This document shows positions 13,207 to 47,475 of a stretch of DNA of 64,000 nucleotides, in pieces. The notes under the pieces are model-generated. The model made no database searches. It was given only the letters and a program-made list of their open reading frames with translations, and was not told the origin of the DNA. The first letter of the stretch is position 1; the number at the start of each line of letters is the position of its first letter. The translations under genes and the position numbers were made by a program. The stretch comes from Candidatus Levyibacteriota bacterium (lineage in GTDB: Bacteria; Patescibacteriota; Microgenomatia; Levybacterales; UBA12049): positions 130,209 through 194,208 of the forward strand of contig JACOXT010000003.1 of the NCBI GenBank assembly GCA_016182235.1, read 5' to 3'.

Positions 13207-14889
13207 ATGCTTATTTCGAATGATCAATTAAAATCGTTAATACTTAAGACTGGTCTTATTGATGAAAGAGGATACGCCAAAATTGAGGCAGAGGCAAAAA
13301 GCGCTGACAGAACAATTTCGGAAATCTTAATTGAAAGAGATGTAATCTCCGATGAGAATTTAGGCATATTAATCGGTGATTTTCTTAAGATCCCTTTTAT
13401 AGTTCTTGCAAAGACTGCGATAGCTCCAGATGTTTTTAATATAGTTCCAGAAAAAATGGCACGAAAGCAAAAAGTGATACCTTTTACTCGCGATAGTAGC
13501 GGAGTTAAGCTTGCGATGGCAGACCCTTTCAACAAAGAATTGGCTCAAATGATATCGAAAAAAATTGGCCTACCTGTTATCCCATATCTTGCTACAGAAC
13601 AAGATATTTACAACACTCTTCGGATATATAGAAAAGATTTACAAAAAACCTTTAACCTTATGGTAAAAAGTGAAATCGGGACAGGCGCAGGAACCATTAA
13701 TGACGTACCGATGACAAAAATTGTTGATTTATTGATAAACTATGCTTATCAAGATAAAGCTTCAGATATCCATATAGAGCCTGAGGAAAAAGATTCTCTG
13801 GTTCGATTTAGAATAGATGGAGTCTTACACGATGTTTTATTCTTGCCGAAAAATCTCCATGACCAGATAATTACAAGAATAAAAATTTTGTCTCGTCTTA
13901 GAACAGATGAGCATTTAAGCCCACAGGACGGAAAAATGAGAATGGTTTTGGAGGAAGAGGAAATTGATATCCGGGTTTCAATCCTCCCTGTTACTGAGGG
14001 CGAGAAGGCAGTTCTAAGACTTTTATCCTCAAGATTTAGAAAGTTTTCTCTTATGGATTTGGGGATGAACGAGAAAGATTTGAAAAAAGTTACGAATGCT
14101 TACAAAAAATCCTATGGAATGATTCTTTCAACGGGCCCTACCGGATCCGGAAAAACCACATCTATTTACGCAATTTTAAAAATATTAAATACAAGAGAGC
14201 AGAATATTACGACAATAGAGGATCCGGTTGAGTATAGAATAAAAGGCGTAAATCAGATTAATGTTAATGCTAAGACAAACCTGACTTTTGCAAGCGGTCT
14301 AAGATCTATTCTTCGGCAAGATCCTAATATAATTTTTGTTGGAGAAATTAGAGATAGCGAAACAGCCGGCATTGCGGTTAACGCTTCTTTGACAGGACAT
14401 TTAGTTCTATCTACCCTTCATACGAATGATGCGGCAACAGCACTGCCCAGACTTTTGGATATGAATATAGAGCCTTTCTTGGTAGCATCAACTATAAATG
14501 TAATTATTGCTCAAAGGCTTGTTCGCAGAATTTGCGAGATGTGCAAAGGCAGCATCTCTATTACAAAAGAGGAACTCTTGCAGAACCTTCCTTCAGATAT
14601 TATTGAAAAGCAAATTGGCAGTAAGAGAAGTGTTACTATTTATCAGGGAATCGGGTGCAAAATATGTCATTTTACTTCTTATTCCGGAAGAGTTGGGGTA
14701 TTTGAAGTTTTGGGTATGACCGAGGCCATAAGGGATTTGGTAGCAAAAAGAAGTAATGCAGATGTAATTTTACAAAAAGCAAAAGAAGAAGGAATGACGA
14801 CAATGCTGGACGATGGTTTGGAAAAGGTGCTAAAAGGAGTTACTACCATAGAGGAGATATTAAGAGTAACAAAGGTACAAATTAATTAA
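13207..14889 (+). CDS. pilB: Type IV pilus assembly ATPase (GspE/PilB family)
   Basis: Walker A GPTGSGKTT; Asp/His boxes; C-terminal CxxC...CxxC tetracysteine motif. Confidence 0.9.
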   Translation: MLISNDQLKSLILKTGLIDERGYAKIEAEAKSADRTISEILIERDVISDENLGILIGDFLKIPFIVLAKTAIAPDVFNIVPEKMARKQKVIPFTRDSSGVKLAMADPFNKELAQMISKKIGLPVIPYLATEQDIYNTLRIYRKDLQKTFNLMVKSEIGTGAGTINDVPMTKIVDLLINYAYQDKASDIHIEPEEKDSLVRFRIDGVLHDVLFLPKNLHDQIITRIKILSRLRTDEHLSPQDGKMRMVLEEEEIDIRVSILPVTEGEKAVLRLLSSRFRKFSLMDLGMNEKDLKKVTNAYKKSYGMILSTGPTGSGKTTSIYAILKILNTREQNITTIEDPVEYRIKGVNQINVNAKTNLTFASGLRSILRQDPNIIFVGEIRDSETAGIAVNASLTGHLVLSTLHTNDAATALPRLLDMNIEPFLVASTINVIIAQRLVRRICEMCKGSISITKEELLQNLPSDIIEKQIGSKRSVTIYQGIGCKICHFTSYSGRVGVFEVLGMTEAIRDLVAKRSNADVILQKAKEEGMTTMLDDGLEKVLKGVTTIEEILRVTKVQIN

Positions 14890-14897
14890 AGTGTCAA

Positions 14898-15950
14898 ATG
14901 AAAACAGAAAATATTACCCTTTCAAACAACGACAAGCTTAGCATATTAAGCGATCTTTCGACCATGCTTTCTGCTGGAATTCCTCTTCTTGAAAGCGTCA
15001 ATGCCCTGCTTGAAGACTCAAAAGGAAACCAGAGAAAACTTTTAGAGACTCTGCAAAGCGACCTGACTCAAGGCAAGCATGTGTACTTTACTTTTTCCAA
15101 ATTTCCAAATGTTTTTACAAAAGTTACAACAAATATTGTTAAGGCATCTGAAGAGGCTGGGACGCTAGATGTCACACTAAAGGATCTTAAAGATAATTTG
15201 AAAAAAGAGATAGAGTTCTCAGACAAAATAAAATCAGCTTTAGTGTATCCACTATTTATAGTTTTTGTTTTTTTCGGAGTACTACTTATGATTCTTATTG
15301 TGGTAATTCCTAAAATTTCCTCAGTCTTTTTAAGACTAAATGTTGAGTTGCCATTACCAACCAAGATGCTAATCTTTATGTCAAATGCGCTTTTGACTCA
15401 GACAATCCCTGTAGTGATAGGATTTGTATTATTCACTTTGGTACTGCTATTTCTTTACAAAAAAAATAAGTCATTTCTTTTAAACGCATTATTTAATTTG
15501 CCGCTTCTGTCTAGCTTGGCAAGAGATATTGATCTCACTCGCTTTTCAAGAAGCTTTTACCTTCTTCTTAACGCAGGTCTGCCAATTACAAATGCTTTGG
15601 AGCTGACAGAAGACGTTATTGTAAAAAAAGAGGTTGCAACTGCTGTCAGGCATGCTAGAGAAGCAGTGGTTGGAGGCAAGAAGCTTTCGGAAGGCTTCAA
15701 AGACAAAAAGAAGATTTTTCCCTCAATCGCAATAAGAATTACTGAGGCGGGAGAAAGAAGCGGAACTCTGGACAAATCCATGGTTGAGATTTCAGAATTT
15801 CTTGATTATCAAACAGGCAATCGCCTAAAAACAATAACCTCGCTTCTTGAACCAATCCTTATGGTTGTGATTGGAGGATTGGTTGGCGGAATGATGCTTG
15901 CGATTATTGCCCCCATATATGGACTTATTGGACAAATCGGACAAAGATGA
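14898..15950 (+). CDS. pilC: Type IV pilus platform protein (GspF/PilC family)
   Basis: Duplicated T2SF domain with three TM segments. Adjacent to pilB. Confidence 0.9.
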   Translation: MKTENITLSNNDKLSILSDLSTMLSAGIPLLESVNALLEDSKGNQRKLLETLQSDLTQGKHVYFTFSKFPNVFTKVTTNIVKASEEAGTLDVTLKDLKDNLKKEIEFSDKIKSALVYPLFIVFVFFGVLLMILIVVIPKISSVFLRLNVELPLPTKMLIFMSNALLTQTIPVVIGFVLFTLVLLFLYKKNKSFLLNALFNLPLLSSLARDIDLTRFSRSFYLLLNAGLPITNALELTEDVIVKKEVATAVRHAREAVVGGKKLSEGFKDKKKIFPSIAIRITEAGERSGTLDKSMVEISEFLDYQTGNRLKTITSLLEPILMVVIGGLVGGMMLAIIAPIYGLIGQIGQR

Positions 15951-16423
15951 AGATTTTTAAAGTTTTAAAAAGTGGTCGCGGGTTTACCTTAGTGGAATTG
16001 GGAATAGTAATTGGCATGCTCGCGACCCTTATTGGATTTGCGACAATAAGTTTGTTAAATGTTCAACAGAAGGCCTCTATAAATACAACAGTTCAAGTAA
16101 TAATAGCAGACTTAAAAGCACAACAAGCAAAAGCAATGATTGGAGACACAGAGGGTAGGCCAACACCTAGCCCATATGGCGTGCATCTTGACAATGATCA
16201 ATACGTCTTATTTTATGGCTCAACTTATTCATCAACTGAGACAACAAATTTTGTAGTTAAGCTTTCTGAAAATCTTGAATTTACAACCCCAAGTACAGAT
16301 ATTATTTTTTCTCAAACAACTGGCGAAATATCATCGCCAGTTTCAATAACAATTAGAAATACCAGTAGCGAAGAGAAAACAATTCAACTAAATAAGTACG
16401 GAGTGGTTACGGGAGTAAACTAA
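15947..16423 (+). CDS. Prepilin-type pseudopilin
   Basis: Leader and cleavage/methylation motif MKIFKVLKSGRG/FTLVELGIVIGML. Confidence 0.8.
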   Translation: MKIFKVLKSGRGFTLVELGIVIGMLATLIGFATISLLNVQQKASINTTVQVIIADLKAQQAKAMIGDTEGRPTPSPYGVHLDNDQYVLFYGSTYSSTETTNFVVKLSENLEFTTPSTDIIFSQTTGEISSPVSITIRNTSSEEKTIQLNKYGVVTGVN

Positions 16424-16424
16424 G

Positions 16425-18398
16425 ATGAAAAATCAAAAGGGACAGTCGTTAATTGAGATATTGATTGTAATAGGTTTGAGCGCGATTTTGTTGCCCGCGC
16501 TTCTCACTGGACTTGTCGCGTCTCGGGAAGGAAAAGCTCAAGATTCTCAAAGATCTCAGGCTTTAACTCTTCTAACAACGACTATAGAGGCAGCGCGCAG
16601 CGTACGCGAGAACGGTTGGGCTAGTTTTGCTATAAACGGTACATTTCATCCGGAAATTTCAGGGTCGTCTTGGACGCTTGTAGGAGGGAGTGATACTATA
16701 AATGGATTCACGAGAAAAATTGAGATTAGCGATGTAAACAGAGACTCAAATGGAACAATTGTTACAACTGGCGGAACTCTTGACCCATCAACTAAAAAAA
16801 TAGTAGCAACAATTTCATGGGGACTTCCTTATATTTCCTTAATTTCCGACACGCTTTATATGACCAGATATTTAGACAACAATGGCCATATAGATACTAC
16901 CACAAGTGATTTCACAATTGGAGCTACGCATACAAGCACAGTCACCCAAGATCCTCCGTCTGCAGATGGAGAGGTTATTTTGGGTGCTGGTGGAGGAGGA
17001 GGAAATTGGTGCACGCCAAGCGCATCAATTGTTGCACAAGATTTGCCCAAAAGTGGAGTGGCAAATGCGATTACAGCAATAGAGGGATCAGATGGAAATG
17101 TTATTGTATTTGCTGGTACGGGGGATAATTCTTCCGGTGTATCATTTGCAGATGTTGATATTGTTGGAGATACTCCGTCCATTTCTACTTCTATTCCTGC
17201 AACTTTTGATGGTTACAAAACTAACGCGGTTTTTGGAGAGAATGACTATTCATATCTTGCAACGGATAACAATTCAAAAGAAATAGTAATAATGAGCCTA
17301 ACTCAATTTAGCAATCCTCCTACAAATTCGAAATATCTGGAAGTTGGTTCAATTAATTTACCGGGAAACGTAAATGGAAATAGTATTTTTGTGGTCAACA
17401 ACAAAGCTTATGTCCTTTCTTCCAATAATAAGTTTTATATTTATAATCTTTCAGCTGATCGAACTTCTGCTACTCTTCAAAATACAGGAGGCCTTACGAT
17501 TTCAGGATCTGGCAAAAAAGTTTTGGTTGCAGAAGATTATGCGTATGTAGCAACTGGTGCAACATCAAATCAGTTCCAGATAATCAACGTAGAAAGTTCT
17601 TCAAGTCCAAATATTGCCGGACAAATAACTCTTGGATCATCCCAAACAGGAGTTGATATATATGTGAATACCAACATAGAGGAACCTTCTGTTGCTTATT
17701 TTGTAACTTCGTATTCAGCAGGTAATTCGAATGTATTTAAAATTAATATCTCAAATGAATCCAGCCCAGTGGTAGAAGGTAGTGGTTATAGCACGAATGG
17801 AATGAATCCTACAGGTATAACTGTTGTTACAGGGAATAAGGGAATAGTCGTAGGATCTGGGGGAACAGAACAATATCAAGTGTTTGATGTTGGAACTTTC
17901 GTTAAATGCGCAGGGCTAGTTTATTCCACAGGAATAAATGGTGTGTCGTCTGTTTTGAAAACCAGTGGATATGCTTATTCTTATATTATTACTGGAGATG
18001 CGAGCGCAGAGCTTAAAATAATTCTTGGAGGCGGCGGAAGCGGAACAACTTATGCTCCGGCAGGAAGTTTTATTTCAGATGCAGTAGATGCTCTTATTCC
18101 AACAGTATTTAATCGATTTGAATTTACAGTTACTCAGCCTTTGCAGACAACCATAGGATTTCAGGTAGCAGTTGCAAATCCTGCTCCAGATTGTGCAAGC
18201 GCAACCTATGAATTCATTGGTCCGGGTCTTACTTCTAATATAAGTGATGTATTTACAACCGGAAGTCCAGTACCAATACTAAGCAGTGGCTCTTATCAAA
18301 ATCCCGGTCAATGTTTTAAATATAAAGTTTATTTTACAACTGTTGATTCAAACCAAACACCAGTTTTATATGATTTTACACTAAATTATAGTCCATGA
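16425..18398 (+). CDS. Large (657 aa) pseudopilin with an LVIVD-like beta-propeller module; candidate tip adhesin
   Basis: N-terminus KG/QSLIEILIVIGLSAILL. Repeated blocks include DYSYLATDNNSKEIVIMSL..SNPP, NKAYVLSSNNKFYIYNLS, DYAYVATGATSNQFQIINVESSSSP and VAYFVTS...VFKINISNESSP. Confidence 0.7.
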   Translation: MKNQKGQSLIEILIVIGLSAILLPALLTGLVASREGKAQDSQRSQALTLLTTTIEAARSVRENGWASFAINGTFHPEISGSSWTLVGGSDTINGFTRKIEISDVNRDSNGTIVTTGGTLDPSTKKIVATISWGLPYISLISDTLYMTRYLDNNGHIDTTTSDFTIGATHTSTVTQDPPSADGEVILGAGGGGGNWCTPSASIVAQDLPKSGVANAITAIEGSDGNVIVFAGTGDNSSGVSFADVDIVGDTPSISTSIPATFDGYKTNAVFGENDYSYLATDNNSKEIVIMSLTQFSNPPTNSKYLEVGSINLPGNVNGNSIFVVNNKAYVLSSNNKFYIYNLSADRTSATLQNTGGLTISGSGKKVLVAEDYAYVATGATSNQFQIINVESSSSPNIAGQITLGSSQTGVDIYVNTNIEEPSVAYFVTSYSAGNSNVFKINISNESSPVVEGSGYSTNGMNPTGITVVTGNKGIVVGSGGTEQYQVFDVGTFVKCAGLVYSTGINGVSSVLKTSGYAYSYIITGDASAELKIILGGGGSGTTYAPAGSFISDAVDALIPTVFNRFEFTVTQPLQTTIGFQVAVANPAPDCASATYEFIGPGLTSNISDVFTTGSPVPILSSGSYQNPGQCFKYKVYFTTVDSNQTPVLYDFTLNYSP

Positions 18399-18967
18399 AG
18401 ACAATACAAATTGTTAAATTGCTAAATTGTTATATTGCCAAGTTAATAAAAAACAATACAACAATAAAACAATACAACAATCATAATGGCTTTACGATTG
18501 TTGAGTTGCTGATGTTTATGGGGCTTTTGTCAATAATGCTTGTTATATTGACGGGGATCTTTGTATCAGCTCTAGATGTTCAGCTTGAATCTGAAGCCAA
18601 TTCTTCTGTACAGCAAGATGGAAATTACATCCTTGCCAAATTATCGGGAGACATGCATAAGGCAACAAATATTTCAATCCCGAGTTCCTTAGGCGGATCT
18701 GCAACCAATTTTCAAGTAGTTGTTGGAGGTGTAAGCTATACGTATAATGTAAATTCGGATAACCTTGAGCTAAATGATGGGGTTTCAGCAGACGCTCTTA
18801 ATAGTTATAATTCAAGTATCTCTAATTTTTCGGCAACTCGATTGGGAAATAGCGGAAAAGTAGAAGATACGCTTAAAATTAATTTTACACTGACAAGCAA
18901 AACAAAAAAAAATACGGGTTTTGAGACAAAAGATTTTGAGACAACGCTTTCTCTTAGAAGACAATGA
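18395..18967 (+). CDS. Prepilin-type pseudopilin with an unusually long 32-aa leader
   Basis: ...YNNHNG/FTIVELLMFMGLLSIML. ATGA overlap with the upstream gene. Confidence 0.75.
   Translation: MKTIQIVKLLNCYIAKLIKNNTTIKQYNNHNGFTIVELLMFMGLLSIMLVILTGIFVSALDVQLESEANSSVQQDGNYILAKLSGDMHKATNISIPSSLGGSATNFQVVVGGVSYTYNVNSDNLELNDGVSADALNSYNSSISNFSATRLGNSGKVEDTLKINFTLTSKTKKNTGFETKDFETTLSLRRQ
18401..18482. repeat. Mirror-symmetric array of degenerate 8-bp repeats (about 4 x AAATTGNT, then about 4 x AACAATAN) inside the prepilin leader coding region
   Basis: Read directly: ttaaattg ctaaattg ttatattg ... aacaatac aacaataa aacaatac aacaatca. The arms are imperfect reverse complements. Confidence 0.6.
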
Positions 18968-19371
18968 TGCATAAATTTCAAATTTCAAATTTCAAATTTC
19001 AAATTTCAGAGGGTGGGCAGGCTTTAACTACACTTTTGATTTTTGTAATAATAGCTGTAACAATTACATCGGGAGCAATAGTAGTTCTTATCGCGAATAC
19101 CACATCGACAAGTAAAATTCAGGAAGGTTTGGCTGCGTATTACGCGGCAGAGAGCGGCGTTGAGAATGCGCTACTTCGTCTGTTAAGAGACCCGAATTAT
19201 ACAGGTGAAACTTTATCTATAGATACGTCAACTGCTGAAATTACCGTAACAGGAAGTAATCCAAAAACTGTTGTTTCAGTTGGGCAAAATGGAAACTTTA
19301 AACGCACTGTTCAAGTACAAATGAATTATAATAGTGGGTATTACACCTTTTCCAGTTGGAAAGAGATTTAA
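18964..19371 (+). CDS. PilX-N-like minor pilin / pseudopilin
   Basis: GGQALTTLLIFVIIAVTITSGAIV followed by AAYYAAESGVENALLRLL, the PilX N-terminal pattern. Confidence 0.6.
   Translation: MMHKFQISNFKFQISEGGQALTTLLIFVIIAVTITSGAIVVLIANTTSTSKIQEGLAAYYAAESGVENALLRLLRDPNYTGETLSIDTSTAEITVTGSNPKTVVSVGQNGNFKRTVQVQMNYNSGYYTFSSWKEI
18973..19007. repeat. Perfect tandem heptamer (AAATTTC) x5 in the 5' coding region of the PilX-like gene
   Basis: Read directly; encodes KFQISNFKFQIS. The unit length is not a multiple of three. Confidence 0.9.
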
Positions 19372-19373
19372 TT

Positions 19374-20099
19374 ATGTTTTCAAAAAACAATACGATTATT
19401 TTACTATTAGATAGAAGCGGATTTATTCTATTTAGAGACAGCTTGACGAATGTTTTGAGGTTCCCATTTGCGCCTGATATTGTCGCGAATCTGGATGTAG
19501 TTAATAAAGATCAGCTTACTAATCTAGTCATTTCCTTTATTGAAAAAAATAAGATAAATCCAGGCATAATGGTAGTATTATTGTCAGACGCTACTATATA
19601 CGAAAAAAACATATCTATACTTCCGCAGAAAACTCAATCTTCGGTTAACGGCATGAATCATAACTTTAATCACGAGGAAGAGATTCAACAGTATCTCCAG
19701 AATATTCCATTTGAAGACATTCTTGCCAGGGTTATAAAAACAGAGAAGAATTCCATGTTGGTTGCGGCCAACAAAGATCTTATTTCTTCAATTATAAACC
19801 CATTTATTAAAAAGGGGTTTGTTGTAGAATATGTAGTTCCAAGCTTCTTATACGGACAAAACTTAAATATTACAAATGGATTAACGTCAGATATTGCTCG
19901 GGCAGTCTTAAGAAAAACAGAGTTATTAAAAGTTGCCAATCTGTTAATAGGTCAAGAACATATAAACATTCCTCAGGATTCGCAACGAAATGGAAAAGAT
20001 ATAGAAGAAAAACCAAAAAGTATCAGGCAATTTATTCTCATTGGTGTCTTTATTTTTTTGGCAATAGTTTTGGTAGTTATGCTTCTTACTTTAAAATGA
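19374..20099 (+). CDS. Hypothetical tail-anchored membrane protein in the pilus operon (possible PilM/N-like role)
   Basis: C-terminal TM FILIGVFIFLAIVLVVMLLTL. The ORF-track start at 19356 overlaps the upstream gene; the ATG at 19374 follows its stop. Confidence 0.5.
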   Translation: MFSKNNTIILLLDRSGFILFRDSLTNVLRFPFAPDIVANLDVVNKDQLTNLVISFIEKNKINPGIMVVLLSDATIYEKNISILPQKTQSSVNGMNHNFNHEEEIQQYLQNIPFEDILARVIKTEKNSMLVAANKDLISSIINPFIKKGFVVEYVVPSFLYGQNLNITNGLTSDIARAVLRKTELLKVANLLIGQEHINIPQDSQRNGKDIEEKPKSIRQFILIGVFIFLAIVLVVMLLTLK

Positions 20100-20103
20100 C
20101 CCC

Positions 20104-20133
20104 TTGACAACAGCTTTTTTATATGTTTATACT
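20104..20133 (+). promoter_or_regulatory. Consensus promoter TTGACA-18-TATACT for the major pilin
   Basis: TTGACA at 20104-20109 and TATACT at 20128-20133. This argues that the TTG start at 20104 in the ORF track is not used. Confidence 0.6.
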
Positions 20134-20157
20134 GGATATATCAGAAATTTACTGCCC

Positions 20158-20652
20158 ATGAAATTATTTAGAAATAATCAAAAAGGTTTTACACTCATAG
20201 AGCTTTTAGTCGTAATCGGCATCCTCGCAATCCTTCTGGCAATCACACTTATCGCTATTAATCCCGCAAGACAATTTGCCCAAGCAAACAATACCCAGAG
20301 ACAGAGTGATGTAAACGCAATCTTGAATGCTGTCCATCAGTATATGGCGGATAATAATGGCACTCCACCTGCGGGCATTCCTGTTGATGATGGAGATCCG
20401 GCAACAGATGACACTCTTCCAATTGGAGTAAATGCAGCACTCCCGGCAAGCGTAGTTGATCTTTGCACTCCTCTAGCTCCTACATATATTGCGGCCATTC
20501 CTACCGATCCGCAATCAGGCGTTACCCCTGTAACCGATTGTGCGGTTGATCACGATACTGACTACAGGATAGTACAAAGTGCTACAAATTCAAGAATTAC
20601 TATATCTGCTCCAGATGCTGAACTAACTGCAATCATTTCTGTAACAAGATAA
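20158..20652 (+). CDS. Type IV major pilin
   Basis: MKLFRNNQKG/FTLIELLVVIGILAILLAI, a class III signal, plus a C-terminal Cys pair. Start moved to the ATG at 20158. Confidence 0.85.
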   Translation: MKLFRNNQKGFTLIELLVVIGILAILLAITLIAINPARQFAQANNTQRQSDVNAILNAVHQYMADNNGTPPAGIPVDDGDPATDDTLPIGVNAALPASVVDLCTPLAPTYIAAIPTDPQSGVTPVTDCAVDHDTDYRIVQSATNSRITISAPDAELTAIISVTR

Positions 20653-20742
20653 ATTCCTCATAATACTTAAAATAAGATATATACTCTGGTTTTACTCATC
20701 TTATCTTGCATTACACAATATTCTCTATTATAATTTAATAAA

Positions 20743-22935
20743 TTGAGATTAATAGCCGGTGGATTTTTCTGTTTGTTTCTTTTTCTATTTTCTTTGAGTA
20801 ACGTAAATAAAGTTTATGCGGACTTAACTAATGAATTTTTTGCAACTAGCAATATCATTTGCAATAATTGGGTAAATATAGAAAGTTCTTTAGGTCCTCC
20901 TGATTTAATATATGCAACTATTTCTAACAAAATTCCTGTTTGTAGATGGAATTTTAATACACCTTTTAATATTCCTCTAGAGTCAGAAATAAATGAGATA
21001 AAAGTAAAAGTTTATTACAGCAGTTCAGGGAATAATGGTAATTCTTCAATGTCACCTTTTTATAATGGAATCCAATCGTGCGTTCCACCTCCTTTTTGGC
21101 CTGCTCGTATCTTTAACGATGCTCACGAATATGTAGTTACACCCTTAAATTGTCCTACAACATTTCCAACTCTTGCACAACTGAATAGTTCTGGGATGAG
21201 TTGGCGTTTCTTCAACTCAGGCAATATAAACGCAGCTATAGATGCAGTATCCATGCGGGTTTCTTATACTCCATTCAGTACGCCAGCTCCTCTTCCCCTT
21301 TTCGATCTTCCGTGGGATTATGAGGGGAAAGGAATTTCATTTAATGAGGCCGCATTGGCGATAAATTCATATTTTGACCATGACTATCCTTTATTAAGTT
21401 CTGGTTTAAGCGAGCCAGCAGACAGTTTGGGGACAATTATTAATTATTTAGGTTTTCCCCGTGTGAATAAATTTTACTCGAGTCATGATGGTTATGATTA
21501 TGGCATACCTGCAAATGTTCATCTCGGCGATCCAGTTCTGGCTGCAGGAGATGGAATTGCGACTTATATTAATTCCTGTAGTGATTGCGGAAATATGATT
21601 ATTATAGATCATGGAAACGGATATCAAACTCGATATCTTCATTTACAAAAAGATGGATTAATATCATCCACTCCTGGTGAAGAAATTAATGTAAATGCAG
21701 GACAGCAAATTGGCCTTGTTGGCGCGACTGGGAAAACTACAGGAGCCCATATCCATTTTGGAGTTTTCCAAGACAAAAATAATGATGGAAATTTTTCAGA
21801 CAATATCCCAGATGGTGTAACAGATCCATTTGGATGGCAGTCAAAAGATCCTGATCCTTGGGAGACTTACTCGTTTTTCTACAATGGTGAAGATAGATCA
21901 GGAAATAAATCTTATTATCTTTGGAAGAAAAATCTTGACAAGCTTGACGCGATACTTACATCAAATGGCGGCGTATTTAATACAGAAAGATTTGAACTTG
22001 ATTTTCCGCAAGATTCGGTAGTTAACGAAACGCATTTGAGCATTAAGTCGGCTCCAATAATAAAAGACTTAAATAACCTTTCGTCTATTGGTTCAACTTT
22101 AGACATTCATGCTTTTGATTCTCAGGGCAACGAAGTTTTAAATTTTGAAAAAGAATTCACTTTGACGGTTGGTTTTAATGACTTTGATCTTATCCCTTAT
22201 AACACAGATAGTTTCTCTATTTATTCAAGTGCGGATGGAGTTGTTTGGAATAAAGAACCAACTCTTGTTGATTTTGTTAATAAGTCTGCAATTGCTAGAT
22301 TTAATCACCTAACTCATTTTGCTCTTATGGCAGAAAGATTTGATACAGATCCTCCCGTTACGACTGCTGTTTTAGATGGACAAAATGGTCAATCAAATTG
22401 GTTTAGATCCGATGCTTATGTTAGTTTAAATTCGGATGACGGAAGAGGTTTGGGTACTGACTATACTTTATATAGAAAAGAAGATGAGGACTGGGAAACT
22501 TACGAAGGCCCACTACTATTTACCGATGAAGGGCATCATAAAATAGAATTTTATTCTGTTGACAAAGACGAAAATATTGAGGATGTGAAATCAGTAAAAT
22601 TCGATATTGATAAAACAGCGCCTGAGGCAGAAATTGACATAAATCCCAAAACAATTTGGCCGGCAAACGGGAAGATGATAAATATTTCTGTTACCGGCGA
22701 TGTAAGCGATTTACATCTATTCTCCAAACAAATTTTAGTTATTGACGAGTATGACCAAATACAGCCTGCTATTTCTGATTTTGGACAAACAATTCAGCTT
22801 GAAGCAAAAAGAAGAGGTAATGATTTAGATGGAAGAATATATGTTCTAGGAATACTAGCAGAAGATTTAGCAGGAAATGTAAAAGAGGATCAAGTTAAAG
22901 TAGTAGTTCCTCATGATCAGGGAAAAGACAAATAG
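20743..22935 (+). CDS. Secreted M23 family metallopeptidase with a C-terminal Ig-like/adhesion region
   Basis: Signal peptide; HDGYDYG (HxxxD), IIIDHGNGYQTRYLHL, GATGKTTGAHIHFGVF (HxH). Confidence 0.85.
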   Translation: MRLIAGGFFCLFLFLFSLSNVNKVYADLTNEFFATSNIICNNWVNIESSLGPPDLIYATISNKIPVCRWNFNTPFNIPLESEINEIKVKVYYSSSGNNGNSSMSPFYNGIQSCVPPPFWPARIFNDAHEYVVTPLNCPTTFPTLAQLNSSGMSWRFFNSGNINAAIDAVSMRVSYTPFSTPAPLPLFDLPWDYEGKGISFNEAALAINSYFDHDYPLLSSGLSEPADSLGTIINYLGFPRVNKFYSSHDGYDYGIPANVHLGDPVLAAGDGIATYINSCSDCGNMIIIDHGNGYQTRYLHLQKDGLISSTPGEEINVNAGQQIGLVGATGKTTGAHIHFGVFQDKNNDGNFSDNIPDGVTDPFGWQSKDPDPWETYSFFYNGEDRSGNKSYYLWKKNLDKLDAILTSNGGVFNTERFELDFPQDSVVNETHLSIKSAPIIKDLNNLSSIGSTLDIHAFDSQGNEVLNFEKEFTLTVGFNDFDLIPYNTDSFSIYSSADGVVWNKEPTLVDFVNKSAIARFNHLTHFALMAERFDTDPPVTTAVLDGQNGQSNWFRSDAYVSLNSDDGRGLGTDYTLYRKEDEDWETYEGPLLFTDEGHHKIEFYSVDKDENIEDVKSVKFDIDKTAPEAEIDINPKTIWPANGKMINISVTGDVSDLHLFSKQILVIDEYDQIQPAISDFGQTIQLEAKRRGNDLDGRIYVLGILAEDLAGNVKEDQVKVVVPHDQGKDK

Positions 22936-38651: not shown

Positions 38652-39050
38652 ATGGCGGATAGTAAAAGTGAAAAAGAAAAAGTAAAGAAAAAAAATGTTC
38701 TGGTCTCTAGTAACGGTAGAGCTTATATAACCTCTACATTTAATAATACTATAGTTACAATAACAAATGACAAAGGAGAGGTTATCGGATGGAGTAGTGC
38801 CGGAGCAAGCGGTTTTAAGGGTACAAGAAAATCTACTCCATATGCTGGAACTACAGCAGCAGAGAATGTTACTAGAAAGGCAGTTGCAAAAGGTCTGAAG
38901 ACAGTTGAGGTATACGTAAAAGGTCCGGGGGGAGGTCGGGACTCTGCGCTTCGCGGAATTAAAAGCGGCGGACTTTCGATATCTTTGATTGCAGATATAA
39001 CACCTATGCCACATAACGGACCGAGGGCTAAAAAGAAGAGGAGGATCTAG
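38652..39050 (+). CDS. rpsK: 30S ribosomal protein S11
   Basis: [15 protein letters not shown]...WSSAG..GFKG.RK.TP.A. Confidence 0.96.
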
Positions 39051-39064
39051 TTAACTTATAGTTT

Positions 39065-39142
39065 TTGGTCTTTGGTCTATAGCAAATGACTAAAGACTAA
39101 TAGCAAATGACTAAAGACTAATAGCAAATGACTAAAGACTAA
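39065..39142. repeat. 2 x TTGGTCT followed by 3 perfect copies of a 21-bp unit (tagcaaatgactaaagactaa = three heptamers), ending immediately before the rpsD ATG
   Basis: Read directly: copies at 39080-39100, 39101-39121 and 39122-39142. uuggucuuugguc can pair with gacuaaagacuaa using G-U wobbles. Confidence 0.9.
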
Positions 39143-39143
39143 T

Positions 39144-39752
39144 ATGGGAAGATATACTGGGCCGAAACATAAAACAGCAAGAAGAGAAGGAATAAATATT
39201 CTAGAAAAAGAGTCGGAAAGCCTCAAAAGAAGGTTGAATGTTCCACCGGGAGGCATACAGAGAAAAAAAATAAGAAGAAGGCTTTCTGAATATGGCCAAC
39301 AGCTTCGAGAGAAACAGAAAGCTAAAGCAATATACGGGCTTTTGGAAAAACAGCTTGCAAATTTGGTTAAAGAATTGGGAAAGAAAAAGGGAGAAACAGG
39401 AGAAATGATAATAGCCTCTCTAGAAACAAGATTAGACAATATCGTTTTTCGTTTGGGTTTTGCAAAAACAAGAGCACATGCTCGCCAGCTTGTTGCTCAT
39501 AAACACGTTTTAGTTAATGACAAGAAAGTAAATATCCCATCTTACTATGTAAAGGTAAATGATGTTATTTCTTTGACTTCCCCAACGCAGAGTAATGTTC
39601 AGATAGCGCCTCTTCTCTCGGAAAAAGATCGTAAGGTTTTACCATATCTTAAAAAAGAGGGAACAGTAGGGAAGCTTTTAAGAATGCCCAAAAAAGATGA
39701 CGTCCAAGTTCTTTTTGATTTGCAGCCCATTATTGAATATTATTCAAGATAA
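39144..39752 (+). CDS. rpsD: 30S ribosomal protein S4
   Basis: MGRYTGPKHKTARREG... Confidence 0.96.
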   Translation: MGRYTGPKHKTARREGINILEKESESLKRRLNVPPGGIQRKKIRRRLSEYGQQLREKQKAKAIYGLLEKQLANLVKELGKKKGETGEMIIASLETRLDNIVFRLGFAKTRAHARQLVAHKHVLVNDKKVNIPSYYVKVNDVISLTSPTQSNVQIAPLLSEKDRKVLPYLKKEGTVGKLLRMPKKDDVQVLFDLQPIIEYYSR

Positions 39753-39768
39753 TGGTACAATGTAGCTT

Positions 39769-40692
39769 ATGGTAAATCCGATATTTAAGGTAAAAGAAGA
39801 GAAAACTGGCGAAAATGAAAGCAGATTTATTATTGAACCTTTAGACCAGGGTTTTGGTCATACTCTCGGAAATGCTTTACGAAGAGTGCTTTTAACTTCT
39901 ATAACAGGTGCTGCAGTCACTTCAGTTAAGATTCCTGGTGTAAAACATAAATTCTCAACCATTTCTGGAGTTAAAGAAAACGTTATTGATCTTTTACTTA
40001 ATATAAAAGGTTTAAATTTTAAACTTCTTGACTCAACGAATAAAGGAAAGGTTTCCTTGTCAATTAAAGGGCCGAAGAAAATAACAGCTTCAGATTTTGA
40101 CCTGCCTGAAAATATTGAGATTGTAAATAGCGACCATTATATTGCTTATATTAACGATAAAAAGGCAAAGCTTGAAATGGATTTGACAGTCGAGCAAGGC
40201 TTGGGATTTACTTCGTCTGAAGATCAAAAAACCAGCTCACTTGGCGTAATGCCGCTAGATGCAGTTTTTACCCCTGTTAGAAGAGTAAGCTACGAAGTCT
40301 CTGCTACCCGAGTTGGCAGACAGACAGATTTAGACAAACTAGTTTTGAATATTTTGACGAATGGAGTTGTCAGTCCAAGGGAGGCATTGGATGAAGCAGC
40401 TGAAATATTAAGCTCGTACTTTTTGCAGGTTTATGAACCAAAATATTCGGAACCCTCAAAATCATCAACTCAAGAGTCTATGGCTGTTGATAGTATTTCA
40501 AAACTTACAATCGACGAACTAGATTTGCCAACGAGAATTTATAACAGTCTTCGCAATGGAAGCGTTGAGACTATAGGCGATCTTTTGTCTTCAACAAAAA
40601 AGAACTTGATGTCAATGCGAAATATGGGAAACAAATCAATCATGGTTATAGAGGAAAAACTTAAACAAAGAGGGGTATCGTTAGCACAATAA
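39769..40692 (+). CDS. rpoA: DNA-directed RNA polymerase alpha subunit
   Basis: GFGHTLGNALRRVLL; C-terminal domain LDLPTRIYNSLRN. Confidence 0.96.
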   Translation: MVNPIFKVKEEKTGENESRFIIEPLDQGFGHTLGNALRRVLLTSITGAAVTSVKIPGVKHKFSTISGVKENVIDLLLNIKGLNFKLLDSTNKGKVSLSIKGPKKITASDFDLPENIEIVNSDHYIAYINDKKAKLEMDLTVEQGLGFTSSEDQKTSSLGVMPLDAVFTPVRRVSYEVSATRVGRQTDLDKLVLNILTNGVVSPREALDEAAEILSSYFLQVYEPKYSEPSKSSTQESMAVDSISKLTIDELDLPTRIYNSLRNGSVETIGDLLSSTKKNLMSMRNMGNKSIMVIEEKLKQRGVSLAQ

Positions 40693-40776
40693 TTGTGCTA
40701 AATCTCAAATCTTAAATCGCAAAGCCCAAAGCTGCAGCTTTCAGTTTTGACTTTTGACATTTGAGTTTTGAGATTT
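40681..40776. repeat. 9-bp perfect hairpin across the rpoA stop codon, then a mirror array of heptamers (5 x AAANNNN | 6 x NNNNTTT)
   Basis: ttagcacaa-taa-ttgtgctaa; then aaatctc aaatctt aaatcgc aaagccc aaagctg | cagcttt cagtttt gactttt gacattt gagtttt gagattt. Confidence 0.85.
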
Positions 40777-46095: not shown

Positions 46096-46806
46096 ATGAT
46101 CAGAGAAAGAGAATCAGGTAGCATTAATGGGGTCCACCTTGAACAGGAAAGAAGAAAAGGATTTGGAGTACTTTTGCCTATCGTTGAGATAGATCCCAGT
46201 AGAAATGGAGAAAATATAACACAGCCTAAATTGTTCACTATTATAGAGAAGAAATCTAAGCCTGAGACAGGAAAGATAGCTGGACAAATTTCATTTCCAG
46301 GCGAAACTGCAAAAATTCATAATGAACCGATGGGGGACAATATAATTGGAGGAATAGCAGAGGTTACAGATAATGATTATACAATTAGAAACAATATTTT
46401 TTTCATGCGAGATTCCTCTTTTATTAAAGAAAGAATTTTTATAAACGGCAATCCTTTTGATATGGCTATATTAATACATGTTGGTCCTTTCGATAATGCC
46501 ATCAAACCTGTGGATGTTAATGAAGTTTCACCAAACGGACCAATGACAATTCAAGAAATTAGAAGAAAAGATCCTACCAGAGATTCTAGAATTGTAAGAC
46601 GAATTGTGCATCAAGTCGCAGACTTAGAAGATTCGGAAGGTCTCATAAGAAGGGTCGTATCTGACTTTTTTAATTTTCCTACCTTGAGAATTCCTTTGCG
46701 AGCTATTTTGCCTGATGGCTTTTCCTCTATAAGGGATTTTTTTCAAGAAAGAGAAAGGACTGTAGACGTTATTGGCTCACTTTCCAAACCTTCTCTGTCT
46801 TCTTGA
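46096..46806 (+). CDS. Hypothetical protein with a degenerate Nudix-like segment
   Basis: GQISFPGETAKIHNEPMGDNIIGGIAEVT lacks the REx2EE catalytic residues. It starts 3 nt after the kinase gene. Confidence 0.45.
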   Translation: MIRERESGSINGVHLEQERRKGFGVLLPIVEIDPSRNGENITQPKLFTIIEKKSKPETGKIAGQISFPGETAKIHNEPMGDNIIGGIAEVTDNDYTIRNNIFFMRDSSFIKERIFINGNPFDMAILIHVGPFDNAIKPVDVNEVSPNGPMTIQEIRRKDPTRDSRIVRRIVHQVADLEDSEGLIRRVVSDFFNFPTLRIPLRAILPDGFSSIRDFFQERERTVDVIGSLSKPSLSS

Positions 46807-47475
46807 GTATTCTGCAATAGCGTTTTCTATATCTTCGTCATTAAGATCTGGAAAGTGTTTCTCAAGAAAAAAATACTCCGCATATGCTGCTTGCCAGATC
46901 ATAAGGCCTGATGTTCGCATCTCTCCACTTGTTCTTATGATTAAATCCGGATCAGGATGAGGTTGATTAGCAGTATCTAAAAATTGGCTAAAGTTCTCTA
47001 TGTTAATACTTAATACTTTATACTTTATACTTAATACTTTCTTTATTGCCCTTATTACTTCATCGCGTCCTCCATAATCGAGCGCAATATTTAAGACATA
47101 TTTGTCAAATGATTTTGTTTTTTCCTCTGAATTTTGGATTTTTTTAAGTAAACCTTTTGGGATTCTGTCTTTTCTTCCAAGATGAATAATTCTTATTTTT
47201 TCCTTCATTGCCTCCTTTAGATTTTTGTCTATGAATATTTCGTACATCTTCATAAGGTAATTCACTTCTTCTTTACTTCTGTCCCAATTTTCAGTTGAGA
47301 ATGCCCACATTGTGAGAGTATTAACGCCAAGGGATCGAATTTTTCTCCCGATTTTTATTGCCACATCAAATCCTCGTCTATGTCCTTCAAGACTTGGAAG
47401 TCTGTGTTCTTTTGCCCACCTTCTGTTTCCATCAGGAGTAATTGCTATATGATTAGGGATATTAAGATTAGCCAT
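46777..47475 (-). CDS. uppS: Isoprenyl transferase (undecaprenyl diphosphate synthase family)
   Basis: HIAITPDGNRRWAK, DLIIRTSGEMRTSGLMIWQAAYAE. Confidence 0.92.
   Translation of the reverse strand: MANLNIPNHIAITPDGNRRWAKEHRLPSLEGHRRGFDVAIKIGRKIRSLGVNTLTMWAFSTENWDRSKEEVNYLMKMYEIFIDKNLKEAMKEKIRIIHLGRKDRIPKGLLKKIQNSEEKTKSFDKYVLNIALDYGGRDEVIRAIKKVLSIKYKVLSINIENFSQFLDTANQPHPDPDLIIRTSGEMRTSGLMIWQAAYAEYFFLEKHFPDLNDEDIENAIAEYSRRQRRFGK
47003..47037. repeat. Five tandem heptamers (ttaatac ttaatac tttatac tttatac ttaatac) inside the uppS coding sequence
   Basis: Read directly. On the minus strand it encodes KVLSIKYKVLSI. Confidence 0.8.

What the first reader, a model, noticed from the sequence alone, without database searches (positions are those of the whole stretch)
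18964..19010. Perfect (AAATTTC) x5 tract at codons 4-15 of a PilX-like minor pilin: candidate slipped-strand phase switch
Five exact tandem heptamers (18973..19007) sit just after the ATG of the PilX-N-like gene. This ATG is the gene's only in-frame start and overlaps the upstream stop codon. Because 7 is not a multiple of 3, gain or loss of one unit shifts the frame and abolishes the protein. Only changes of three units restore the frame. Short non-triplet repeats at the 5' end of surface-structure genes are the classical contingency-locus architecture in host-associated bacteria. A pilus-associated switch would be notable in an episymbiotic CPR-type organism.
Basis: partly seen in the sequence, partly recalled or inferred. 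Interest (0 to 1): 0.6.

Follow-up and report, generated by a model that had tools for sequence, protein, structure and literature searches.

The report
Heptamer microsatellite in minor-pilin leader
A perfect five-copy 7-base repeat sits in the disposable leader-peptide part of a small pilus-tip protein gene of a groundwater Levybacteria (CPR) genome, and related genomes show such repeats change fast, so it can plausibly flip the gene on and off by frameshift, though almost every assembled genome has it "on".

Summary
(AAATTTC)x5 lies at 18973..19007 and is not a chance match. It occupies codons 4-15 of a 135-aa PilX/GspK-like minor pilin in a type IV pilus operon of a Candidatus Levybacteria MAG. 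The tract lies entirely in the 17-18-residue leader that precedes the invariant G|QAL start of the mature protein. It is not a one-off. In about 100 related loci, AAWTTTC-type heptamer arrays are almost the only microsatellites. They sit in the leaders of four minor-pilin genes and never in the major pilin. They turn over far faster than their flanks. One lineage carries 5 versus 3 units as the only difference in 3.3 kb. Another pair has identical flanks but a rebuilt leader. In the window allele only 2, 5 or 8 units keep the frame. So the switch is mechanically real and the tract is probably hypermutable. Against an adaptive switch, 115 of 115 DNA loci are in frame. Only one weak candidate OFF contig was found. 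Arrays never exceed 38 nt, and some units carry an ATG that buffers frameshifts. Verdict: a probable slippage-driven ON/OFF locus, a new variant of a known kind. Adaptive use is unproven.

The parts
18973..19007 (+). Five perfect AAATTTC units (36 nt including the extra A at 19008). This is the slippage-prone tract, read as K-F-Q-I-S-N-F-K-F-Q-I-S.
18964..19014 (+). Leader-peptide-coding segment (codons 1-17, MMHKFQISNFKFQISEG). It precedes the invariant G18 codon (19015-19017) and the Q19-A-L mature N-terminus.
   Evidence: G18, Q19, A20 and L21 are invariant in 30 homologues while residues 1-17 are not alignable. The PilX_N match starts at residue 18. Residues 1-14 have pLDDT below 50.
18964..19371 (+). 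PilX/GspK-like minor pilin gene, 135 aa.
   Evidence: Pfam PilX_N E=0.002, below the cut-off, with 6 of 30 family members matching. Predicted helix 16-75 plus a five-stranded sheet. Best PDB matches are minor pilins.
18965..18967 (+). TGA stop of the upstream pseudopilin gene (18395..18967). It overlaps the ATG at 18964 in an ATGA junction, which implies translational coupling.
   Evidence: The same ...AGAAGACAATGA junction occurs in many sibling loci.
19015..19098 (+). Codons for G18 and the hydrophobic N-terminal helix of the mature pilin (GQALTTLLIFVIIAVTITSGAIVVLIAN).
19025..19027 (+). TAA stop reached when the tract has 1, 4 or 7 units (product ...FQRVGRL*).
   Evidence: with coordinates.
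19113..19115 (+). TAA stop reached when the tract has 0, 3, 6 or 9 units (product ...RGWAGFNYTF...HIDK*).
   Evidence: with coordinates.
19036..19038 (+). The only other in-frame start-like codon (TTG, L25). It lies inside the transmembrane helix and is unlikely to rescue an OFF allele.
19374..20099 (+). Next gene of the operon (241 aa, no Pfam hit). It starts 2 nt after the PilX-like stop, so it could suffer polar effects from premature termination. This is inference only.
13207..22935 (+). Type IV pilus operon context. Members are: PilB-like ATPase 13207-14889; PilC 14898-15950; pseudopilin 15947-16423; giant pilin 16425-18398; pseudopilin 18395-18967; the PilX-like gene; an unknown gene; the major pilin (probable start 20158) to 20652; M23 peptidase 20743-22935.

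Best explanation
The tract is a slippage-prone heptanucleotide microsatellite. It sits in the part of a PilX/GspK-like minor-pilin gene that encodes only the N-terminal leader. That leader lies ahead of the invariant G|QAL site, is probably cytoplasmic, and is presumably removed by the prepilin peptidase. Because the leader is disposable, in-frame repeat numbers (2, 5 or 8 units) all yield the same mature pilin. Any other number shifts the frame, and translation stops at 19025-19027 or 19113-19115. Replication slippage would therefore produce heritable, reversible subpopulations lacking this pilus-tip or priming subunit, and possibly with reduced coupled translation of the downstream gene. What is shown: the tract, its position in the leader, the frame consequences, the family-wide presence of such arrays in four minor-pilin leaders, and their rapid length and sequence turnover in sibling lineages. 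What is inferred: that the window's own tract slips at an elevated rate, that the leader is cleaved, that loss of the protein changes piliation, and that switching is of use to the organism.
For: 1. The tract is perfect, has a non-triplet unit and lies at the 5' end of the ORF. It is not a chance match.
2. Only 2, 5 or 8 units keep the frame.
3. The tract is confined to the leader. Homologues share an invariant G-Q-A-L and a conserved mature part, but their leaders are unrelated and range from 2 to 76 codons. Residues 1-14 are disordered in the model.
4. There is direct length polymorphism in a sibling lineage. Eight contigs from different samples are identical over a 3.3-kb alignment except for a 14-nt (two-unit) indel in an (AAATGTC)n tract: 5 units versus 3.
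5. L155 and L078 show no differences in 1283 nt upstream or about 540 nt downstream. Yet the leader is rebuilt: (AAATTTC)x2 versus (AATTTTC)x4.6, with different start-codon junctions.
6. Protein clusters at 90% identity, including members with identical mature parts, carry several different leader arrays.
7. Arrays stay perfect (32-38 nt) in at least 10 of 18 loci with 17-codon leaders, although the mature proteins are only 60-80% identical to the window's. This implies continuing homogenisation by slippage.
8. Placement is non-random. Perfect arrays of at least 21 nt occur in 18/102 PilX-like leaders, 8/61 upstream-pseudopilin leaders and 2/23 giant-pilin leaders, but in 0/67 major-pilin leaders (Fisher p=1.5e-4).
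9. One contig (L149) has (CTCATCT)x5.3 with the mature frame closed upstream and no start codon. It is a candidate OFF allele.
10. Precedent exists: neuO of E. coli K1 switches through a 5'-coding heptanucleotide repeat (PMC13001214).
Against: 1. All 115 DNA loci found by similarity have an in-frame start. For comparison, 65.6% of neuO-carrying genomes are OFF.
2. The single OFF candidate is a 671-nt contig at 1x coverage, and its putative ATG is cut by the contig end.
3. Five units is short for a fast switch. No perfect array exceeds 38 nt, and the leader length is strongly modal at 17 codons. This pattern fits constraint better than free length variation.
4. In the best-sampled lineage, 23 of 24 contigs group with the 5-unit allele.
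5. Some arrays (AAATGTC) contain an ATG, so every frame keeps a start. That buffers switching rather than exploiting it.
6. Heptamer-built elements also occur outside pilin genes in this window: in the rpsD and rplQ spacers and inside uppS. A general heptamer-generating process could therefore explain the tract's presence without selection for switching.
7. Part of the leader diversity is mosaic, pointing to recombination rather than slippage.
8. No reads or sibling assemblies exist for this strain.
Confidence: 0.55

Rival explanations
1. The tract is a tolerated by-product, not a switch. Levybacteria have a process or an ancestral array that spawns AAWTTTC heptamer repeats. The repeats persist only where sequence is unconstrained, namely cleavable minor-pilin leaders and intergenic spacers. 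Selection merely keeps the frame, and OFF variants are deleterious dead ends.
For: No OFF consensus among 115 loci. Narrow, modal array size. ATG-containing units that neutralise frameshifts. Heptamer arrays in r-protein spacers and in frame inside uppS. Many lineages carry decayed, imperfect arrays, as in an ordinary microsatellite life cycle. 23 of 24 contigs of one lineage share one allele.
Against: The major-pilin leader should be equally tolerant, yet it has 0/67 arrays against 28/186 in minor pilins. Within the pilus loci, about 30 of 31 arrays lie in leaders, which make up only a few percent of the sequence. Even under this view, OFF cells are produced mechanically, so the difference from the best explanation concerns usefulness, not mechanism.
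Confidence: 0.3
2. The heptad array is a cis-acting nucleic-acid element. It would be a row of 7-nt binding sites, or an unstructured A/U-rich platform next to the start codon, that tunes translation or coupling of low-abundance minor pilins. This would be analogous to the TAACTGA heptamer repeats found just upstream of start codons in Beggiatoaceae and cyanobacteria. It lies inside the ORF only because the ATGA gene overlap leaves no intergenic room.
For: Only period-7 repeats occur: 41 against 3 for all other periods from 2 to 12. Units share a consensus AAWTTTC, with 19 of 31 within one mismatch against 2.6% expected. Arrays start 2-6 codons after the ATG. Heptad-built elements abut the rpsD and rplQ starts in this window. 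The tract is unstructured as RNA (z=+0.25). L009 uses the same unusual unit, TTGTATC, in two different leaders. Precedent: PMC4679880.
Against: Units differ between strains whose mature proteins are identical or nearly so, which is hard to reconcile with a fixed trans-acting reader. Many family members have no array at all, with leaders of 2-10 codons. No candidate binding protein was identified. The elements outside the pilins are imperfect, are 21-mers, or form hairpin arms.
Confidence: 0.1
3. The tract is a programmed -1 ribosomal frameshift site. AAATTTC fits the slippery pattern X XXY YYZ (A AAU UUC). Five tandem copies present it in every reading frame, so the ribosome rather than the DNA would change frame.
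For: The unit matches the X XXY YYZ pattern. The third unit is read as A AAU UUC in the zero frame. Both points come from sequence inspection and established knowledge of -1 frameshift sites.
Against: Sibling arrays at the same position do not fit the pattern: AATTTTC, AAATGTC, AAAGTCA, ATCTCTC, ACTTTGC, TTGTATC. There is no downstream stimulatory structure. The -1 and +1 frames end in short peptides with no conserved product.
Confidence: 0.02

Closest known systems
Neisseria opa genes (CTCTT pentamer repeats) and pilC (poly-G tract), both in the signal-peptide-coding region (from my own knowledge)
   Same: A non-triplet repeat sits in the part of a surface or pilus protein gene that encodes only the removable signal or leader. 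In-frame repeat numbers therefore give an unchanged mature protein, and other numbers give OFF. pilC switching also controls piliation.
   Different: The unit here is a heptamer with only five copies. The leader is a class III (prepilin) leader of a minor pilin, not a Sec signal peptide. Sibling loci are essentially always ON, whereas most opa copies are OFF at any time. The host is an uncultivated groundwater CPR bacterium, not an animal pathogen.
E. coli K1 neuO (CUS-3 prophage O-acetyltransferase), AAGACTC heptanucleotide repeat in the 5' coding region (PMC13001214)
   Same: A heptanucleotide unit at the 5' end of the ORF. The full-length product is made only in one repeat-number class modulo 3.
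   Different: neuO carries 3-53 units and is OFF in 65.6% of genomes. Its repeats remain in the protein, and the paper cites earlier work that a longer repeat region raises enzyme activity. Here arrays never exceed about 5.4 units, the consensus is always ON, and the encoded residues are presumably cleaved off.
TAACTGA heptamer direct repeats of Beggiatoaceae, Cyanobacteria and Bacteroidetes (PMC4679880)
   Same: Lineage-specific, heptamer-only direct repeats concentrated next to start codons, including in ribosomal-protein operons.
   Different: Those repeats share one fixed unit genome-wide and are mostly intergenic, a few nucleotides upstream of the start. Here the unit drifts (AAWTTTC variants), and the arrays are translated as part of a leader peptide.
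Streptococcus gallolyticus pil1 pilus phase variation through repeats in an upstream leader-peptide ORF, acting by attenuation (PMC3894217, seen by title and abstract; details from my own knowledge)
   Same: Short non-triplet repeats in a 'leader peptide' control a pilus operon stochastically.
   Different: There the leader is a separate regulatory mini-ORF acting through a transcription terminator, and the pilus is sortase-assembled. Here the leader is part of the pilin precursor itself, and no terminator-like structure follows.

Membership tests
SSR-mediated phase-variable (contingency) locus | Perfect simple-sequence repeat with a non-triplet unit inside the ORF or promoter of the gene | tested here: met
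   (AAATTTC)x5.1, 100% matches, codons 4-15.
SSR-mediated phase-variable (contingency) locus | Repeat number differs between otherwise identical or clonal genomes | tested here: inconclusive
   Met in sibling lineages: 5 versus 3 units as the only difference in 3.3 kb, and a rebuilt leader in identical flanks. It could not be tested for the window's own strain, which has one assembly, no contig record and no reads.
SSR-mediated phase-variable (contingency) locus | Both ON and OFF repeat numbers are found in natural populations | tested here: inconclusive
   115 of 115 similarity-retrieved loci are ON. One candidate OFF contig exists at 1x coverage with its start cut by the contig end.
SSR-mediated phase-variable (contingency) locus | High-frequency, reversible switching with a phenotype | not testable with these tools
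   Needs reads, amplicons or reporter assays.
Type IV pilin superfamily, minor pilin of the PilX/GspK (PulK) type | Class III signal: a short N-terminal leader ending in Gly, followed by a hydrophobic helix of about 20 residues | tested here: met
   The G18|QALTTLLIFVIIAVTITSGAIVVLI motif has G18-Q-A-L invariant in 30 homologues. The model has a helix at 16-75.
Type IV pilin superfamily, minor pilin of the PilX/GspK (PulK) type | Pfam PilX_N (PF14341) at or above the gathering score | tested here: not met
   18.5 bits against a cut-off of 25.5 (E=0.002). 6 of 30 family members match at E<=0.01, best 4.1e-5. Sources name some members PilX N-terminal domain protein or PulK.
Type IV pilin superfamily, minor pilin of the PilX/GspK (PulK) type | Pilin fold (N-terminal helix packed on a beta-sheet) resembling solved minor pilins | tested here: inconclusive
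   The model has pLDDT 86.4, a helix plus a five-stranded sheet. Best PDB matches are S. sanguinis minor pilin PilA and T. thermophilus ComZ, with probability 0.96-0.98 but E only 0.13-0.6 and TM about 0.4-0.5.
Type IV pilin superfamily, minor pilin of the PilX/GspK (PulK) type | Encoded in a pilus operon with the assembly ATPase, the platform protein and other pilins | tested here: met
   T2SSE (E=6.5e-127), T2SSF (E=8.7e-46) and N_methyl pilins flank the gene.
Type IV pilin superfamily, minor pilin of the PilX/GspK (PulK) type | Leader removed by a prepilin peptidase (PilD, A24 family) | not testable with these tools
   No A24-like motif was found among window ORFs. Cleavage is assumed by analogy.
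-1 programmed ribosomal frameshift site | A conserved slippery heptamer X XXY YYZ plus a downstream stimulatory structure and a conserved trans-frame product | tested here: not met
   AAATTTC fits the pattern, but sibling units do not. The fold z-score is +0.25. Alternative frames end after 11-59 aa.
TAACTGA-type start-proximal heptamer direct repeats | One fixed heptamer, intergenic, within a few nucleotides upstream of start codons genome-wide | tested here: not met
   Units vary around AAWTTTC. The arrays lie downstream of the ATG inside leaders. Only the heptamer period and the proximity to start codons are shared.

The most novel reading that the evidence does not exclude
Levybacteria, and perhaps other Microgenomates, may run a small 'phasome' built only from AAWTTTC-type heptanucleotide microsatellites. 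The repeats sit in the disposable prepilin leaders of up to four minor-pilin genes: two pseudopilins, the giant LVIVD-repeat pilin and the PilX-like subunit. Independent frameshift switching of these genes would give combinatorial, heritable variation of pilus-tip composition or of piliation. This would occur in an uncultivated, non-pathogenic groundwater lineage. It would be the first contingency-locus system described in the CPR, and the first to use class III signal peptides as the neutral housing for the repeat. The restriction to heptamers would further point to a dedicated mechanism or to a factor that reads the repeats.
Probability: 0.3. Interest if true: 0.8.

Novelty: new variant of a known kind. 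Interest (0 to 1): 0.62.

Why it matters
Type IV pili are thought to be central to CPR biology, serving in attachment to hosts and in DNA uptake, yet their regulation in these reduced genomes is essentially unknown. Phase variation by simple repeats has been documented mainly in host-adapted pathogens. A repeat-driven stochastic switch would extend the contingency-locus concept to environmental ultra-small bacteria, here with the repeat housed in the cleavable leaders of minor pilins across many groundwater Levybacteria. It is directly testable with existing metagenomic reads by counting units per read. It would also explain a practical nuisance: the odd 'KFQISNFKFQ', 'NFQFSIFNFQ' and 'KVKSQKLKVKS' N-termini and the unstable start-codon calls of these proteins in CPR annotations. 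Even if switching is not adaptive, two features are unusual and unexplained: only heptamer repeats occur, and leaders turn over extremely fast between otherwise identical genomes.

Tried and rejected
1. Exact-protein look-up of the window protein found no contig on record, so own-strain polymorphism could not be examined.
2. A scan of viral contigs for relatives found none.
3. Exact-protein look-ups for P0018 returned only identical tracts. This is expected, because identity look-ups cannot return alleles whose product differs, so this route is biased towards invariance. The 3-unit allele (L143) was found only because its ATG-containing unit let two gene calls share one product.
4. The look-up of P0163 gave a single contig.
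5. Rfam found nothing near a gathering score at the tract or at the r-protein spacer elements.
6. RNA folding of 18940-19060 shows no structure (z=+0.25). A riboswitch, attenuator or terminator reading was therefore dropped.
7. The -1 frameshift reading was rejected because sibling units do not fit the slippery pattern.
8. Chance or assembly artefact was rejected. The tract is far shorter than reads and k-mers. The same (AAATTTC)x5 occurs independently in L003, L073 and L076.
9. A peptide-level function for the repeat is unlikely. Translations differ completely between strains with the same mature protein, and the segment is predicted disordered.
10. A simple motif search for a prepilin peptidase in the window found none.
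Full report
**The observation**

The tract is real. The sequence reads ...AGACAATGATGCAT(AAATTTC)x5 AGAGGGTGGGCAGGC.... Tandem Repeats Finder gives 18973..19008, period 7, 5.1 copies and 100% matches. The 35-mer is unique in the window. With up to three mismatches allowed, it is absent from all 100 dinucleotide-preserving shuffles.

It lies in ORF 18964..19371 (+, 135 aa) and occupies codons 4-15. The ATG at 18964 overlaps the TGA (18965-18967) of the upstream ORF 18395..18967. There are two adjacent in-frame ATGs (18964 and 18967). There is also one further in-frame TTG at 19036, but that lies inside the hydrophobic helix.

**The gene and the organism**

The protein is 100% identical to a hypothetical protein of a Candidatus Levybacteria MAG (HYT07_00985, 600-kb contig). 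It has 301 homologues, almost all from Levybacteria/Microgenomates metagenomes.

The gene sits in a type IV pilus operon:
- Hpt and response-regulator genes
- PilB-like ATPase (T2SSE, E=6.5e-127)
- PilC (T2SSF)
- a pseudopilin
- a 657-aa pilin with LVIVD-like repeats
- a second pseudopilin
- this gene
- a 241-aa protein with no family match
- the major pilin
- an M23 peptidase

Pfam PilX_N matches residues 18-67 at E=0.002, below the gathering score. Six of 30 family members match, the best at 4.1e-5. Some sources name relatives 'PilX N-terminal domain protein' or 'PulK'.

An AlphaFold model built from a 30-sequence alignment has pLDDT 86.4. It shows a disordered segment 1-14, one long helix (16-75) and a five-stranded sheet, which is the pilin architecture. 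The best PDB matches are the S. sanguinis minor pilin PilA and the T. thermophilus competence pilin ComZ. Their probability is high (0.96-0.98) but the E-values are weak (0.13-0.6). I therefore call it a PilX/GspK-like minor pilin, on context and fold rather than on a curated family score.

**Where the tract sits in the protein**

In an alignment of 30 homologues, G18, Q19, A20 and L21 and much of the rest are invariant. Everything before G18 cannot be aligned. The shortest relatives start MKNFQKG|QAL..., an ordinary prepilin leader. Others carry 10, 13, 17, 24 or up to 76 leader codons.

The window's tract therefore encodes only the leader (MMH-KFQISNFKFQIS-EG|G...). By analogy with other type IV pilins, the leader stays in the cytoplasm and is cut off. 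Cleavage itself was not testable.

**The family pattern**

I fetched 142 related loci from genome and metagenome collections and anchored them on the G-Q-A-L codons.

- *Arrays are common.* 55 of 115 anchored loci have at least two perfect heptamer units within 130 nt upstream of the G codon, and 18 have four or five. Units differ between lineages. AAATTTC occurs in the window, L003, L073 and L076. Others are AATTTTC, AAATGTC, AAAATTC, AATTCAG, AATTTAC, ATTTCTC, ATCTCTC, ACTTTGC and TTGTATC.
- *Units are related.* 19 of 31 units are within one mismatch of AAATTTC in some rotation, against 2.6% expected. The consensus is AAWTTTC.
- *Only heptamers occur.* In 410 kb of 101 distinct loci, perfect repeats of about 20 nt or more number 41 for period 7. 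All other periods from 2 to 12 together give 3.
- *Arrays sit in minor-pilin leaders.* With stricter criteria, 31 of 31 non-triplet arrays are heptamers. Seventeen lie at -48..-2 of the PilX-like G codon and eight at about -720..-520. Three lie at about -3000..-2700 and two in long leaders. Only one lies elsewhere. Translation shows that the upstream clusters sit between the Met and the G|F or G|Q site of the other minor pilins of the operon.
- *The major pilin is spared.* Perfect arrays of at least 21 nt occur in 18/102 PilX-like leaders, 8/61 upstream-pseudopilin leaders and 2/23 giant-pilin leaders. They occur in 0/67 major-pilin leaders (Fisher p=1.5e-4).

**Evidence that the arrays are unstable**

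(a) *Rifle-type lineage.* Eight contigs from different samples are identical over a 3.3-kb alignment. The only difference is a 14-nt indel in the tract: (AAATGTC)x5 in seven contigs and x3 in one. This is a two-unit, frame-shifting change. It survives because the unit contains an ATG that supplies an in-frame start (MSNVKCQSG... against MRNVKCQMSNVKCQSG...). Of 24 contigs carrying the downstream protein, 23 group with the five-unit allele and one has three units.

(b) *L155 versus L078.* These have no differences in 1283 nt upstream or about 540 nt downstream of the leader. The leader itself is rebuilt. One has an ATGA start plus (AAATTTC)x2. The other has a TAAcATG start plus (AATTTTC)x4.6 and a different 3' junction.

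(c) *Protein clusters.* Clusters at 90% identity contain members with identical or nearly identical mature parts but several unrelated leaders. One groundwater population has mature DNA 94-99% identical and at least six leader types.

(d) *Persistent perfection.* Perfect 32-38-nt arrays persist in more than half of the loci with 17-codon leaders, although the mature proteins are only 60-80% identical to the window's. That requires ongoing homogenisation.

Part of this diversity is mosaic. L156 and L087 share an identical 50-nt leader although their mature DNA is only 82% identical. Recombination therefore contributes alongside slippage.

**Consequences for the window allele**

I rebuilt the gene in silico with 0-9 units. 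With 2, 5 or 8 units it gives the full protein. With 1, 4 or 7 units it ends ...FQRVGRL* at 19025-19027. With 0, 3, 6 or 9 units it ends at 19113-19115.

AAATTTC contains no start codon, so the rescue seen with AAATGTC is not available here. The next gene starts 2 nt after the stop, so polar effects through lost coupling are conceivable. That point is inference only.

**What argues against an adaptive switch**

- All 115 loci retrieved by similarity, irrespective of gene calls, have an in-frame start. In neuO, the known heptanucleotide switch, 65.6% of genomes are OFF.
- The only OFF candidate is L149. It carries (CTCATCT)x5.3. The mature frame is closed by a stop 21 codons upstream with no ATG, GTG or TTG. 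The likely ATG at the contig edge is in another frame ending ...GGKL*. But the contig is 671 nt at 1x coverage, and the ATG is cut by the contig end.
- Arrays are short, never above 38 nt, and leader length has a sharp mode at 17 codons.
- ATG-bearing units neutralise frameshifts.
- Heptad-built elements also occur outside pilins in this window. One is a hairpin whose arms are AAATCTC-like repeats between rpoA and rplQ (z=-3.4). One is a perfect 21-mer x3.1 abutting the rpsD start. One is an in-frame array inside uppS.

A general heptamer-generating process, filtered by selection, could therefore explain the tract's presence.

**Explanations weighed**

*Best explanation (0.55).* The tract is a slippage-prone microsatellite in a disposable leader. 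Mechanically it gives reversible frameshift ON/OFF of a minor pilin. ON is strongly favoured in population consensus.

*Rival 1 (0.30).* The mutational behaviour is the same but there is no adaptive use. The array is merely tolerated.

*Rival 2 (0.10).* The heptads form a cis-acting platform next to the start codon, as proposed for TAACTGA repeats. The heptamer exclusivity and the consensus unit favour this. The unit differences between near-identical strains, and the many array-less relatives, count against it.

*Rival 3 (0.02).* A -1 ribosomal frameshift site. AAATTTC fits X XXY YYZ, but sibling units do not. There is no downstream structure and no conserved trans-frame product.

Rfam gives nothing.

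**Comparison with known systems and novelty**

It works like Neisseria opa and pilC, which carry a repeat in the signal-peptide-coding region (from my own knowledge). It also works like neuO, which carries a 5' heptanucleotide repeat.

It differs in several ways. The repeat is housed in class III prepilin leaders and spread over several minor pilins. Copy number is low and modal. The unit is heptamer-only. The consensus state is almost always ON. The host is an uncultivated CPR bacterium.

Full-text searches found no report of repeat-mediated phase variation in CPR/Patescibacteria. The nearest is an in-frame 9-mer hypervariable surface protein in a Gracilibacterium.

I rate it a new variant of a known kind, with interest 0.62. 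The decisive test is simple and feasible: count repeat units per read in the source metagenomes.

Noticed in passing
window 40700..40776 (+), between rpoA (39769..40692) and rplQ (ATG near 40783): A long hairpin whose two arms are themselves degenerate heptamer repeats: AAATCTC AAATCTT AAATCGC AAAGCCC AAAGCTG paired with CAGCTTT CAGTTTT GACTTTT GACATTT GAGTTTT GAGATTT. Its energy is -27.7 kcal/mol and z=-3.4. No shuffle folds as well, and no Rfam family matches. It uses the same AAAT(C/T)TC-like unit family as the pilin-leader arrays.
   Followed up: partly
window 39079..39144 (+), spacer between rpsK (38652..39050) and rpsD (ATG 39144): A perfect 21-mer (ATAGCAAATGACTAAAGACTA) x3.1, made of three AA-initial heptads, ends exactly at the rpsD start codon. 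It is preceded by TTTGGTC x2.1. This resembles the start-proximal heptamer repeats described in Beggiatoaceae ribosomal-protein operons.
   Followed up: no
window 47003..47039, inside the 232-aa ORF 46777..47475 (- strand), which looks like undecaprenyl diphosphate synthase (uppS) by sequence inspection only: TTAATAC x5.3 (93% matches) lies inside a housekeeping-type ORF, translated in frame as ...KKVLSIKYKVLSIN.... It shows that heptamer arrays in this genome are not confined to pilin genes.
   Followed up: no
window 18408..18481 (+), leader of the upstream pseudopilin (18395..18967): The 31-residue leader (MKTIQIVKLLNCYIAKLIKNNTTIKQYNNHNG|FTIVELL) contains two imperfect 8-mer arrays: AAATTGTT x3.8 and AACAATAC x3.8. 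They are roughly reverse-complementary and form a weak hairpin (z=-1.7). In sibling genomes the same leader often carries perfect heptamer arrays instead.
   Followed up: partly
window 18904..18912 (+), 3' part of the upstream pseudopilin gene: An A9 homopolymer, the only homopolymer of at least 9 nt in the window. It is another potential slippage site 55 nt upstream of the PilX-like start. It is not conserved as a homopolymer in siblings.
   Followed up: no
loci L064 and L069 compared with L065 and L066 (leader region just upstream of the GQAL codons); also proteins P0051, P0126, P0086 and P0159: A GC-rich insert of about 36 nt (encoding ...GQACL(P/L)(R/H)(L/F)AKHSG...) is present or absent. 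It is flanked by GGNCAG direct repeats. It occurs on both of two different heptamer-array backgrounds in genomes with 94-96% identical mature DNA. All four combinations exist, which indicates recombination or recurrent gain and loss within about 40 nt.
   Followed up: partly
loci L080, L093-L098, L004/L081/L084, L102 and L134 (leader region): Some relatives have leaders of 38-76 codons. These consist of hairpin-like elements with heptad-repeat arms (for example ...AAATCCGAAATCCGAAAC...TTTCGAATTTCGTGCTTCGAATTTCGAATTTTCAG), translated as '...KSETNSN..KFKIVSNFVLRISNF...'. The same leader occurs on different mature backbones (P0123 against P0068), so these elements appear to move or recombine between lineages.
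   Followed up: partly
window 20104..20652 (+), major pilin: The mechanical ORF starts at TTG 20104. The prepilin motif (MKLFRNNQKG|FTLIELL) indicates that the real start is the ATG at 20158. Its leader has no repeat, as in 67 of 67 sibling loci.
   Followed up: partly
L078 compared with L155, about 590 nt downstream of the leader, inside the next gene: A 45-nt in-frame deletion, bounded by a short GCAA... repeat, is the only other internal difference between two otherwise identical contigs.
   Followed up: no
window 16425..18398 (+): A 657-aa pilin-like protein has a normal prepilin N-terminus (MKNQKG|QSLIEILIV) and a weak LVIVD beta-propeller-repeat hit. It is a candidate pilus-tip adhesin. 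Its orthologues in L009 and L054 carry heptamer arrays in their leaders.
   Followed up: partly
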